This document shows positions 38,601-41,600 of a DNA stretch of 64,000 bases, piece by piece. The first letter of the stretch is position 1. Each line of letters starts with the position of its first letter. Position numbers: made by a program. The stretch is from assembly GCF_044647545.1 (NCBI RefSeq), contig NZ_CP172818.1; one strand, 5' to 3'. The DNA comes from Escherichia coli (GTDB lineage Bacteria; Pseudomonadota; Gammaproteobacteria; Enterobacterales; Enterobacteriaceae).

Positions 38601-41600
38601 TCAGAAACATAAGGAGTGAGAGGGATGATACGTTCACCTTCGATCTTGTCTTTAATTCGCATGCTTGACCATTTGAAATCTACGTCTGACCAGCGAAGCG
38701 ACGCAATTTCTTCACGCCGAGCACCAGTGAGCAAAAGTACTTGGAGATAGGCCGATGCAATAGGATTATTGAGGCTACGCACGGCACTAAACCAGCTTTT
38801 TAGTTGTTCCTTTTGCAGGCAATCATCAGCTTTACTCGCTGACACGGGAACCATTTTTCTTACGTTGTAATCTTGTGCCAGATCGCCAGGAATGATCCCT
38901 TGATATTTTTTCTGATAATTACTCCATTTGATGAAAGCACGTAGTAGGCGATAAGCGTGAGCAGTGACGGTAGGTCTATTTTGCCTTTCTGTACTCAGCC
39001 ACGCTGCTATGTAATCTGGGGTTAGCTCCGATAACGGCAGGTTGAGCAAACTAGCCAATGGTCCAGCCGAAGTCGGGCCTTGGCCTCTTTTTTTACTTTC
39101 GCCTCCACGACTGGACAAGTTAATGTGATCGGCAATGTATCGAGTAGAATATGGGCGTTTAGTTTTTGCACTGATACCGGTTCTCAATTCTTGAAGATAG
39201 TCTTCCCAGGCGACGGAGAAAGTCACTTTTGTTTTACGTGATTCTGCCTGCAGGGATTCTGCTTCTGCGATTTTTACAGCCTTAGCAATTCGTGGATCTA
39301 TCCCTGTATCGATCAATGTTTGTAACCGTCTTGCCTCGGCTCTCGCATCATCAATCTTCCAGTCGTTAATGTTGCCAATAGTCATGCGAAGGGTTTTCCC
39401 CGCATATACGCTTTGGAATACAAAGGCTTTTGCTCCGCTAGTTGCTCGGCATGCCAGGGTTGTTACATCTGCATCCCAAAGAAAAGTTTGTTTTTTCCCT
39501 TCCGGTAAGGTGAATCTGCGAAGTCTTTCGAAGGTAAATTTTTGTCTTGAAAGCGCCATTTTTCGGCTCCAGTTGAGAATTGCTGTCTTACAATAATGTA
39601 ACTGCTGGTGTAAGTAAATGGAGGGAATAAACATCAACTTTTGTTAATTTCAATCAACGGGTTTATTGCTATAACTTGGTGTTTTATAATATAAAGTATG
39701 TTGTTTTGATTGATTGCTCAAGTAGTTAAAAATGCATTAACATCGCATTCGTAATGCGAAGGTCGTAGGTTCGACTCCTATTATCGGCACCATTAAAATC
39801 AAAGAGTTACCCCATATTTAAATACACCACGTTTCCTCCTGTGCCGTATTTGTGCCATTGTAACCTTGGCAATTCATCAAAATACTGTTCTGACATCAGG
39901 CAGTGCAGGTGCAGACATTTAAGCCAATTGCTGCCGCCATTCTTTGACGTAGTCAATCAGGGCGCGGAGCTTTGGTGCAATATTGCGACGCTGTGGGAAA
40001 TACAGATAGAAGCCCGGAAATTGTGGAAGAAAGTCATCAAGCAGCGATACAAGCTTACCGCTTTCAATATATGGCCTGAAAGTTTCCTGAGTGGCAATTG
40101 TTATTCCTCCGCCGGCAAGAGCCAGCCTCAACATCAGACGCAGATCATTAGTCGTAATCTGCGGTTCAATCGCAAGGTCGAAAGTTCTCCCGTTTTCTTC
40201 AAATGGCCAGCGATAAGGCGCAACCTCCGGGGACTGACGCCAGCCGATACACTTATGGGTATTTCCCCCGGAGGCGAGAAAGCACTCTCCACGCCCGGCC
40301 GCAAGGATCAGGACGACGGGGGCAGGCATGAATCCTCCTCCTGATGGAGACGTACAGAGGCGACTTCTGCCAGCACGGAGAGTGCCAGAGTATGCGCATC
40401 CCGGGCTTTGGGGAATATCCCGACGGGTGCCCGGATTTGCGTTGTTTCCTCCCTGGACCATCCCAGCTCGTGGAGCTTTTGCAGACGTAACGTGTGGGTT
40501 CGATAGCTGCCCAATGCGCCGAGATAAAAGGGTTTTGCTTCTCGCGCGGCCTGCAACACTGGCAGCTCCCGGTTGAGATCATGGCACAGCAAAATGACCG
40601 CCGTATCGGTATCGATCTGAGCGCTGGCTGAGGCCGGAAAAAGATCGAAGATATGGCTGTCATAGCCTGTGGCTGCTGCAAGACTCGCGGTTGCCTGCGC
40701 CTCAAGAGAACGTCCGTAAATCATCAGCCTGACGCATGGCCTGAACCCCACCTCAAAGCCATTGAGATTCCAGCCCGTCCGGGTTTGCGTGGGCAGGCAC
40801 ACCAGCGATTGTGCTTGCGGATCGTAGCGCAGCCCCACCGGTTTTCTCTGTTCCAGGCGGTTCAGCACGGCGAGCAGAGGCTGTGCCGAGCGTAGTTTAT
40901 GGAGCGTCAGCGTGATCCCACCGCCGCAGGGCAGAACGATGTCAAACCACGGCGAACCTTCGCCATAGCGAATTTCGCGATCGCGGCCTGAGCCCATCAT
41001 CTCCAGCGCTTCAAAAGCGGCAGCGGCCTCCACGCAGCCGCCAGAGACAAAACCGCAGTAACGACCATCTTCGCGCACCACCATCTGCGCCCCGAGCGGG
41101 CGCGCCGCGCCGCCGCGTATCTCCACCAGCGTCACCAGCACCGCTCCTTTACCGGACATTAGCGCCTCTACGGCGAAGCGCAGAATGGTCCGGTGGTCAT
41201 CGGTGAGAAACGCCTGCTCTGGCTTATGCCAGTGTTCGTCTTTGTCAAAAAGCGGGTATGACATTGTTCCTCCTTAAACCACATCCGGCAGCTTATCGAG
41301 CAGCTTATCCAGAGTGATGGGATAATCCCGTACCCGAATACCGGTGGCGTTATACACCGCGTTGGCGATAGCCGCGCTCACGCCGCACAGGCCCAGCTCA
41401 CCGACACCTTTGGCCTTCATCGGGGAGGATATGGGGTCGGTATCATCCAGGAAAATCACCTCCTGTTTTGGGATATCCGCATGAACCGGCACCTCATACC
41501 CCGCCATATCGTGATTAACGAAGTAGCCCAAACGGTCATCCACCGCCAGCTCCTCCATCAGTGCCGCGCCCATGCCCATAGTCATTGCGCCAATGACCTG

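What the first reader, a model, noticed from the sequence alone, without database searches (positions are those of the whole stretch)
39919..40329. LysR-family regulator reduced to an effector-domain fragment overlapped by paoD
Immediately outside attR is a LysR-type C-terminal domain (136 codons) with no HTH; where its N-terminus should be, the 3' end of paoD overlaps. This suggests the pao operon, or the island junction, replaced the 5' half of an ancestral regulator gene.
Basis: inference. Interest (0 to 1): 0.3.

Follow-up and report, generated by a model that had tools for sequence, protein, structure and literature searches.

The report
yagP: known truncated LysR pseudogene
This is the known E. 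coli K-12 pseudogene yagP: the tail of a LysR-type regulator gene left behind by a 6.1-kb deletion and fused in frame to the leftover start of another lost gene downstream of paoD, so it is ordinary gene decay.

Summary
The 136-codon ORF at 39919-40329 (-) is real. It carries only the C-terminal half of a LysR effector domain, has no HTH, and overlaps paoD by 22 nt. It is already catalogued. Its exact sequence is named YagP in public databases, and PGAP marks 39919-40257 as a pseudogene "missing N-terminus".

Neither the thrW island junction nor the arrival of pao truncated the gene.
- Strains with no island carry the same fragment.
- 388 of 5426 complete E. coli genomes (mostly O157/O55/O145) keep the intact 299-aa regulator at the same locus, with pao 6.1 kb away.
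- The K-12 form is in 2668 of 5426 genomes. It is a 6128-bp deletion across a 5-bp microhomology (TTATG). The deletion removed the regulator's first 187 codons, its divergent SDR partner, a second LysR gene, a hydrolase and an MFS transporter.

Only 112 codons are LysR-derived. The start codon, Shine-Dalgarno sequence and first ~24 codons come from the stub of a MocA-like nucleotidyltransferase gene ("paoE"). In at least 24 loci from other Enterobacterales (about 17 named genera) this gene follows paoD intact.

Frameshifted alleles and an apparent excess of amino-acid changes fit neutral decay. Interest is low. The paoE stub is the only detail that may be new.

The parts
39919..40257 (-). 3' fragment of a LysR-family regulator gene (codons 188-299 plus stop). 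This is the only LysR-derived part of yagP.
   Evidence: BLASTP gives 110/113 identical to residues 187-299 of the intact WP_000687183.1. Pfam LysR_substrate matches positions 104-207 of 209. PGAP annotates exactly this 339-nt stretch as a pseudogene 'missing N-terminus'.
40253..40257 (.). Deletion junction: the 5-bp microhomology TTATG (CATAA in coding sense) shared by both parental flanks.
   Evidence: Megablast and blastn of the window against the undeleted strain 2013C-4465 place the left flank up to L005 position 1039 and the right flank from L005 position 7168. The two matches overlap by 5 nt, and 6128 bp are missing.
40253..40329 (-). Stub of a MobA/MocA-like nucleotidyltransferase gene ('paoE'), codons 1 to about 25. 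It supplies the ATG and first ~24 codons of the 136-codon ORF.
   Evidence: 22/25 residues are identical to the N-terminus of the intact 183-aa gene that follows paoD in Enterobacter asburiae; the 27-codon stub in undeleted E. coli XJ6.1 gives 24/26. DNA homology of the undeleted E. coli form to Pluralibacter stops at codon 27. The intact genes hit PF12804 at 91-94 bits.
40334..40342 (-). Shine-Dalgarno sequence AGGAGGAGG, 4 nt upstream of the ATG and inside the 3' end of paoD. It is inherited from paoE.
   Evidence: Read directly from the sequence. The element is conserved in the Pluralibacter and Enterobacter paoD-paoE junctions.
40308..41264 (-). paoD, the XdhC-family molybdenum-cofactor insertion chaperone. 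It overlaps the ORF by 22 nt.
   Evidence: Pfam XdhC_CoxI plus XdhC_C. RefSeq annotates it as paoD.
39744..39805 (+). attR: a duplicated 3' portion of tRNA-Thr (thrW) at the right end of the integrated island.
   Evidence: Alignment with thrW at 5415-5490.
38234..39637 (-). intF, the tyrosine integrase of the thrW island (context only).
   Evidence: Pfam Phage_integrase plus Arm-DNA-bind_3. RefSeq annotates it as intF.

Best explanation
The feature is the K-12 pseudogene yagP, a non-functional chimeric ORF made by two successive gene losses. Step 1 is older and shared by the E. coli forms examined. The MocA-like nucleotidyltransferase gene that follows paoD in other Enterobacterales was lost except for its ribosome-binding site, ATG and first 27 codons. 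Step 2 came later. A single 6128-bp deletion between two TTATG microhomologies joined codon ~25 of that stub, in frame, to codon 188 of a 299-aa LysR regulator gene lying next to thrW. This deletion removed the regulator's HTH and half of its effector domain. It also removed the regulator's divergently transcribed SDR oxidoreductase (its likely target), a small ORF, a second LysR gene, an alpha/beta hydrolase and an MFS transporter. The remnant lies directly after paoD, and no terminator was detected between them. It is therefore probably transcribed as the tail of the pao mRNA and may be translated from the inherited strong SD. It has no DNA-binding domain and only half of a ligand-binding fold, so it is most likely inert and drifting. 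The deletion, its breakpoints, the chimeric origin and the independence from the island are shown. Co-transcription, translation and lack of function are inferred.
For: The exact 136-aa sequence is in public databases as 'Putative LysR family substrate binding domain-containing protein YagP'. PGAP marks it as a pseudogene. The undeleted locus in strain 2013C-4465 has the gene order LysR(299 aa)-SDR-hyp-ykgR'-LysR2-hydrolase-MFS-paoDCBA. Breakpoints and microhomology were mapped. The K-12 junction is in 2668 of 5426 complete genomes, the intact 5' half in 388, and MFS-paoD adjacency in 913. The intact protein has HTH_1 plus a full LysR_substrate domain. Orthologues are 299 aa in five other genera, and in Enterobacter cloacae the gene is paired divergently with the same 240-aa SDR. 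Island-free strains carry the same fragment. In 24 of 32 Enterobacterales loci examined, a 180-190-aa PF12804 gene starts at or just past the end of the paoD match on the same strand. Many frameshifted or truncated alleles of the chimeric ORF exist. Fragment alleles show about 5-7 nonsynonymous versus 5-7 synonymous segregating sites, against 1 versus 13 in intact alleles.
Against: Most sampled alleles still keep the 136-codon frame open (7 of 7 complete genomes), as expected if the deletion is evolutionarily recent. The selection test rests on 11 sequences and is not significant as run (Fisher p = 0.065; that count scored the two changes in codon 231, R to Q, as synonymous). A strong SD and ATG are present, yagP transcript is listed as up-regulated under carbon limitation (PMC6390033), and a Keio yagP deletion appears in one drug-susceptibility screen (PMC12457515). 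Expression, or a polar effect on pao, therefore cannot be excluded. No terminator was detected on either side by the simple scan, so the transcript structure is not established.
Confidence: 0.93

Rival explanations
1. Integration or excision of the thrW island (CP4-6-type), or its attR junction, cut off the 5' half of the regulator gene.
For: The fragment lies about 115 nt from attR. Integrase-bearing islands differ between strains at this tRNA.
Against: The end of the gene facing attR is its complete 3' end with the stop codon. The truncation is at the far end, next to paoD. Strains with thrW directly adjacent and no island have the identical fragment and junction. Strains with an island at thrW can still have the intact gene.
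Confidence: 0.01
2. Acquisition of the pao operon by insertion replaced the 5' half of the regulator.
For: paoD abuts the truncated end. In other genera pao sits in unrelated genomic contexts, so pao has moved during enterobacterial evolution.
Against: E. coli strains with the intact regulator already have paoABCD at the same locus, separated by 6.1 kb of genes that are missing in K-12. Both parental flanks with the TTATG microhomology exist in those strains. One deletion explains the K-12 form.
Confidence: 0.03
3. The 136-aa product is a genuine, selected small protein, for example a stand-alone ligand-binding or LysR-interacting module expressed from the pao transcript.
For: The frame is open in most alleles and the exact sequence was seen on at least 1000 contigs. 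There is a strong SD plus ATG. Transcript changes are reported. One Keio screen lists the mutant.
Against: The protein is chimeric, made of two unrelated gene remnants. It contains only LysR_substrate profile positions 104-207, so the domain is incomplete. It is essentially restricted to E. coli, whereas all orthologues elsewhere are 299 aa. Numerous frameshifted alleles exist. Nonsynonymous changes appear more frequent than in intact alleles. A Keio deletion here could act through the adjacent pao operon.
Confidence: 0.04

Closest known systems
yagP (b0282) of E. coli K-12, annotated as a LysR-family pseudogene or fragment (UniProt: 'Putative LysR family substrate binding domain-containing protein YagP')
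   Same: The 136-aa sequence is identical and the position between thrW/intF and paoD is the same. The window matches K-12-derived genomes at 100% identity.
   Different: Nothing differs; this is that locus. This analysis adds the deletion breakpoints, the list of lost genes, and the finding that the first ~24 codons are not LysR-derived.
Intact 299-aa LysR-family regulator WP_000687183.1 (E. coli O157:H7/O55:H7/O145 and others; 85-91% orthologues in Enterobacter, Pantoea, Leclercia, Klebsiella, Salmonella). The nearest NCBIfam model is YafC, but the score is well below its cutoff.
   Same: Residues 188-299 are 97% identical to the fragment. The position next to thrW and the orientation are the same.
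   Different: The intact gene has HTH_1 plus the complete effector domain and a divergent SDR partner. The window has lost codons 1-187 and the partner.
xdhC-mocA gene pairs: CTP:molybdopterin cytidylyltransferase genes co-transcribed with XdhC-type chaperones, such as B. subtilis pucA-pucB and A. nicotinovorans pAO1 (PMC2997495)
   Same: In other Enterobacterales paoD is followed by a MobA-like NTP-transferase gene on the same strand, overlapping its end. The best NCBIfam match is MocA/YgfJ. The window keeps its SD, ATG and glycine-rich N-terminal motif LAAGRGE.
   Different: E. coli keeps only 25-27 codons. The published E. coli operon is paoABCD, and MCD synthesis is assigned to MocA, which that review does not place in the pao cluster.

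Membership tests
LysR-type transcriptional regulator (functional member) | N-terminal winged helix-turn-helix DNA-binding domain (Pfam HTH_1, PF00126) | tested here: not met
   No HTH_1 hit in the 136-aa ORF or in its 180-aa upstream extension. The intact orthologue has HTH_1 at residues 5-64.
LysR-type transcriptional regulator (functional member) | Complete C-terminal effector-binding domain (PF03466, about 209 profile positions) | tested here: not met
   Only profile positions 104-207 are present. The intact protein covers positions 4-207.
LysR-type transcriptional regulator (functional member) | Length of about 300 aa, as in orthologues | tested here: not met
   112 LysR-derived codons, against 299 aa in the great majority of close orthologues listed (282-303 aa overall).
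LysR-type transcriptional regulator (descent from the family) | Sequence homology to a bona fide LTTR at the orthologous locus | tested here: met
   97% identity to residues 187-299 of WP_000687183.1, in the same position next to thrW.
Pseudogene formed by deletion | An intact allele at the same locus in conspecific genomes, with definable breakpoints | tested here: met
   388 genomes carry the intact 5' half. Breakpoints are L005 positions 1039 and 7168, with TTATG microhomology and 6128 bp missing.
Pseudogene formed by deletion | Relaxed selective constraint or disrupted alleles in the population | tested here: inconclusive
   Many frameshifted or truncated alleles exist. Segregating sites are 5 nonsynonymous to 7 synonymous in fragments versus 1 to 13 in intact alleles, Fisher p = 0.065 on 11 sequences. 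The result is suggestive, but the sample is small and some variants may be assembly errors.
MobA-like NTP transferase / MocA-like cytidylyltransferase (the 5' stub) | Full NTP_transf_3 domain (PF12804, about 160 positions) | tested here: not met
   A 40-aa translation of the stub and its downstream DNA gives no Pfam hit; only about 25 stub codons remain in the window. Intact neighbours of paoD in other genera score 91-94 bits.
MobA-like NTP transferase / MocA-like cytidylyltransferase (the 5' stub) | Descent: orthologous position after paoD and N-terminal sequence identity to intact genes | tested here: met
   The gene is on the same strand in 24 loci, and the Pluralibacter gene overlaps paoD by about the same ~22 nt. 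The undeleted E. coli stub is 81-92% identical over its first 26-27 residues, and DNA homology ends at codon 27.
MocA (TIGR03310 equivalog), for the intact 'paoE' of other genera | Score above the NCBIfam equivalog cutoff (186 bits) | tested here: not met
   83-85 bits. MocA/YgfJ is the best match for the Pluralibacter gene and a close second for the Enterobacter gene, but both are below the cutoff. The gene is MocA-like rather than a demonstrated MocA equivalog, and its enzymatic specificity was not tested.

The most novel reading that the evidence does not exclude
The evidence does not exclude that the inherited paoE ribosome-binding site and ATG drive translation of a PaoE'-'LysR fusion peptide from the paoABCD transcript, and that this peptide has acquired some activity, for example interfering with other LysR-type regulators through its half effector/oligomerisation domain. 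A more modest reading is that E. coli's pao operon was once paoABCDE, and that its dependence on a MocA encoded outside the pao cluster is a secondary consequence of losing its own cytidylyltransferase. I did not find this described in the papers searched.
Probability: 0.05. Interest if true: 0.35.

Novelty: already known. Interest (0 to 1): 0.12.

Why it matters
It matters little for biology at large. yagP is a catalogued pseudogene, and the case is a textbook example of gene loss by microhomology-mediated deletion.

It has some use for annotation. The 136-codon ORF should not be treated as a regulator, as some expression and knockout screens still do. Only 339 nt are LysR-derived, and the fragment is chromosomal backbone rather than part of the thrW prophage.

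The side observation is that E. coli keeps a 27-codon stub of a MocA-like gene after paoD, while other Enterobacterales keep the whole gene. This gives a simple evolutionary explanation for why PaoABC maturation in E. coli relies on a MocA that the literature does not place in the pao operon. It also flags a strong orphan translation-initiation site at the end of the pao operon.

Tried and rejected
- Pfam on a 40-aa translation of the stub gave no hit.
- phmmer of the stub against PDB sequences gave only a meaningless E = 8.9 hit.
- A word-indexed protein search with the stub returned only short E. coli ORF variants and no intact nucleotidyltransferase. Those variants later served as evidence of frameshifted alleles.
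- tblastn of the stub against plasmids gave marginal E-values (0.05-4), but the hits fell consistently on N-termini of NTP-transferase genes next to molybdo-enzyme clusters in Pantoea. In Pantoea sp. SO10 that gene is convergent with the paoD homologue, so it was not a good model. The PaoD-anchored genome scan settled the question.
- The simple terminator and promoter scan found nothing relevant on the minus strand, so the transcript ends remain unknown.
- The first homologue search with the intact LysR timed out and was repeated.
- The literature search for yagP gave only incidental mentions in tables.
- I looked for synteny of the lost E. coli genes downstream of paoE in other genera and found none, so outgroups cannot order the older event.
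- I did not run structure prediction. A half-domain model would not discriminate between functional and inert.

Full report
**Observation**

The window is E. coli K-12-like, and the queried stretch 39600-40700 is 100% identical to K-12-derived genomes. tRNA-Thr thrW lies at 5415-5490. An integrase gene, intF, lies at 38234-39637 (-). A duplicated 3' part of thrW (attR) lies at about 39744-39805. Beyond attR there is an ATG-initiated 136-codon ORF at 39919-40329 (-). paoD is at 40308-41264 (-) and paoC at 41274-43472 (-).

Pfam finds in the ORF only LysR_substrate profile positions 104-207 of 209 (E 1.8e-14) and no HTH. The same holds for the 180-aa upstream extension of the frame. The ORF and paoD overlap by 22 nt.

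**What it is**

The exact 136-aa sequence is in public collections, on at least 1000 contigs. One source names it 'Putative LysR family substrate binding domain-containing protein YagP'. RefSeq/PGAP annotates 339 nt of it (window 39919-40257) as a pseudogene, 'LysR substrate-binding domain-containing protein; incomplete; missing N-terminus'. This is so in K-12 derivatives and in every other strain inspected. It is the known K-12 pseudogene yagP.

**The intact ancestor**

Megablast against 5426 complete E. coli genomes split the region into two independent homology blocks. These meet at window 40253-40257.

In strain 2013C-4465 the left block belongs to an intact 299-aa LysR gene, WP_000687183.1. 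That protein has HTH_1 at residues 5-64 and LysR_substrate at residues 90-294. The fragment equals residues 187/188-299, with 110 of 113 residues identical.

The gene order in that strain is: thrW island, LysR (-), SDR oxidoreductase (+, divergent), a 92-aa ORF, a ykgR fragment, a second LysR (-), an alpha/beta hydrolase (+), an MFS transporter (+), then paoD-C-B-A (-).

Full-length 299-aa orthologues at 85-91% identity occur in Enterobacter, Pantoea, Leclercia, Klebsiella and Salmonella. In Enterobacter cloacae the gene is again paired divergently with the 240-aa SDR, in an otherwise unrelated context. I infer that the ancestral gene regulated that SDR, which is the usual arrangement for LysR-type regulators.

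**How the fragment arose**

Aligning the window with the undeleted locus gives these breakpoints:
- The left flank matches up to L005 position 1039.
- The right flank matches from L005 position 7168.
- The two matches overlap by 5 nt (TTATG).
- 6128 bp are absent.

This is a single microhomology-mediated deletion. It removed LysR codons 1-187, the SDR gene, the small ORF, the ykgR fragment, the second LysR gene, the hydrolase, the MFS transporter, and 124 nt of the spacer before paoD.

Counts among the 5426 complete genomes:

| Configuration | Genomes |
|---|---|
| K-12-type junction (one contiguous match across it) | 2668 |
| Undeleted MFS-paoD junction | 913 |
| Intact 5' half of the LysR gene | 388 (mostly O157:H7, O55:H7, O145) |

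The LysR-SDR pair has also decayed in other ways:
- Strain 88COLEC has a smaller deletion that fuses a LysR fragment to an SDR fragment.
- Strain XJ6.1 lacks both genes.
- One assembly has an SDR fragment next to proA.

The island junction is not responsible. The gene's complete 3' end and stop codon face attR, and the truncated end faces paoD. Strains without any island, where thrW is directly adjacent, carry the identical fragment. Conversely, strains with an island at thrW can have the intact gene.

pao did not replace the 5' half either. Genomes with the intact gene already have pao at this locus.

The refutation condition, a genuine short orthologue elsewhere, is not met. The 136-aa form is essentially E. 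coli-only.

**Why the ORF overlaps paoD**

The first ~24 codons (MPAPVVLILAAGRGECFLASGGNTHK), the ATG at 40329 and a strong Shine-Dalgarno sequence (AGGAGGAGG, 40334-40342) are not LysR sequence. They lie on the paoD side of the junction and are present, unfused, in undeleted strains.

A PaoD-anchored scan of one genome per species returned 80 loci. In 24 Enterobacterales loci, a 180-190-aa gene begins at or just past the end of the paoD match on the same strand. These loci cover Pluralibacter, Leclercia, Enterobacter, Franconibacter, Silvania, Siccibacter, Citrobacter, Cedecea, Atlantibacter, Kosakonia, Dryocola, Pseudocitrobacter and others. In the closest relative, Pluralibacter, the gene overlaps paoD by about the same ~22 nt.

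These genes hit the MobA-like NTP transferase domain PF12804 at 91-94 bits. MocA/YgfJ (TIGR03310) is the best or a close second-best NCBIfam match at 83-85 bits, which is below the equivalog cutoff of 186.

The E. coli stub is 81-92% identical to their first 26-27 residues, for example 24 of 26 with Enterobacter asburiae. DNA homology to Pluralibacter runs through paoD and stops after CATAAATTA, at codon 27.

So E. coli retains only the 5' stub of a 'paoE' gene. The later K-12-type deletion fused that stub in frame to the LysR tail. xdhC-mocA linkage is known in other bacteria, and the E. coli operon is described as paoABCD with MCD made by MocA (PMC2997495). I found no description of the stub in the papers searched.

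**Function**

The chimera has no DNA-binding domain and only half of an effector-binding fold.

Public protein sets contain many frameshifted or truncated alleles carrying the same junction. They are 40-118 aa long, and several sit on complete chromosomes.

In a small sample of 7 fragment and 4 intact alleles, the script counted segregating sites as follows:

| Alleles | Nonsynonymous | Synonymous |
|---|---|---|
| Fragment | 5 | 7 |
| Intact | 1 | 13 |

The script scored both changes in codon 231 (R to Q) as synonymous, so the true fragment split is nearer 6-7 nonsynonymous to 5-6 synonymous. There is also one fixed A-to-T amino-acid difference at codon 212. Fisher p = 0.065 on the counts as run. 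This suggests relaxed constraint but is not conclusive.

Synonymous divergence among fragment alleles reaches about 0.045. I infer that the deletion is not very recent, or that it has spread by recombination.

The simple scan found no terminator between paoD and the fragment. yagP RNA is listed as induced under carbon limitation (PMC6390033). The remnant is therefore probably transcribed with pao and could be translated, but nothing indicates a function. The Keio yagP hit in one screen (PMC12457515) could reflect effects on the adjacent operon.

**One coincidence left unexplained**

The right breakpoint of the K-12-type deletion lies within 0-9 nt of the older breakpoint that ended paoE. If the breakpoint is only constrained to the 179-nt spacer, the chance of this is roughly 5%.

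**Verdict**

This is an already known pseudogene and ordinary gene decay. The only possibly new detail is the paoE stub and the chimeric nature of the ORF. Interest is low.

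Noticed in passing
window 40253-40342 (-); L015-L046 around 5870-6520: E. 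coli keeps only the SD, ATG and about 27 codons of a MocA-like NTP-transferase gene ('paoE'). In at least 24 loci from other Enterobacterales (about 17 named genera) this gene follows paoD intact on the same strand. The published E. coli operon is paoABCD, and the literature read here assigns MCD synthesis to MocA without placing it in that operon.
   Followed up: yes
window 40253-40257 versus L002 around 5995-6000: The right breakpoint of the 6.1-kb deletion (CATAA) lies 0-9 nt from the older breakpoint where homology to intact paoE ends (CATAAATTA). This may be a local deletion hot spot or a coincidence.
   Followed up: partly
L005 7222-8179; L097 562-953: paoD itself is annotated as frameshifted in the O157-like strain 2013C-4465 and in strain GN4751, so the pao maturation gene is also decaying in some lineages.
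   Followed up: no
L009 4657-5336; L002 2400-6055; L014 7001-9400: The thrW-paoD interval has independent alternative decay states. Strain 88COLEC has a small deletion fusing a LysR fragment to an SDR fragment. Strain XJ6.1 has lost LysR and SDR, with an AbiE toxin-antitoxin island nearby. Another assembly has an SDR fragment next to proA.
   Followed up: partly
L005 7168-7200 versus L002 and the window: The O157-type paoE stub carries a 1-nt deletion (GG instead of GGG), so the stub reads ...GGNTIN*. This shows the stub ORF is not conserved as a reading frame.
   Followed up: partly
cluster member P0194: A 138-aa partial protein in the YagP 90% cluster is attributed to 'Vibrio sp. FNV 38' on a 640-nt contig. 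It is most likely E. coli contamination of that assembly.
   Followed up: no
window 39919-40461 (-): The yagP frame stays open upstream to an ATG at 40461, giving a 180-aa ORF that overlaps 154 nt of paoD in another frame. There is no domain in the extension, so it is probably a chance open frame.
   Followed up: partly
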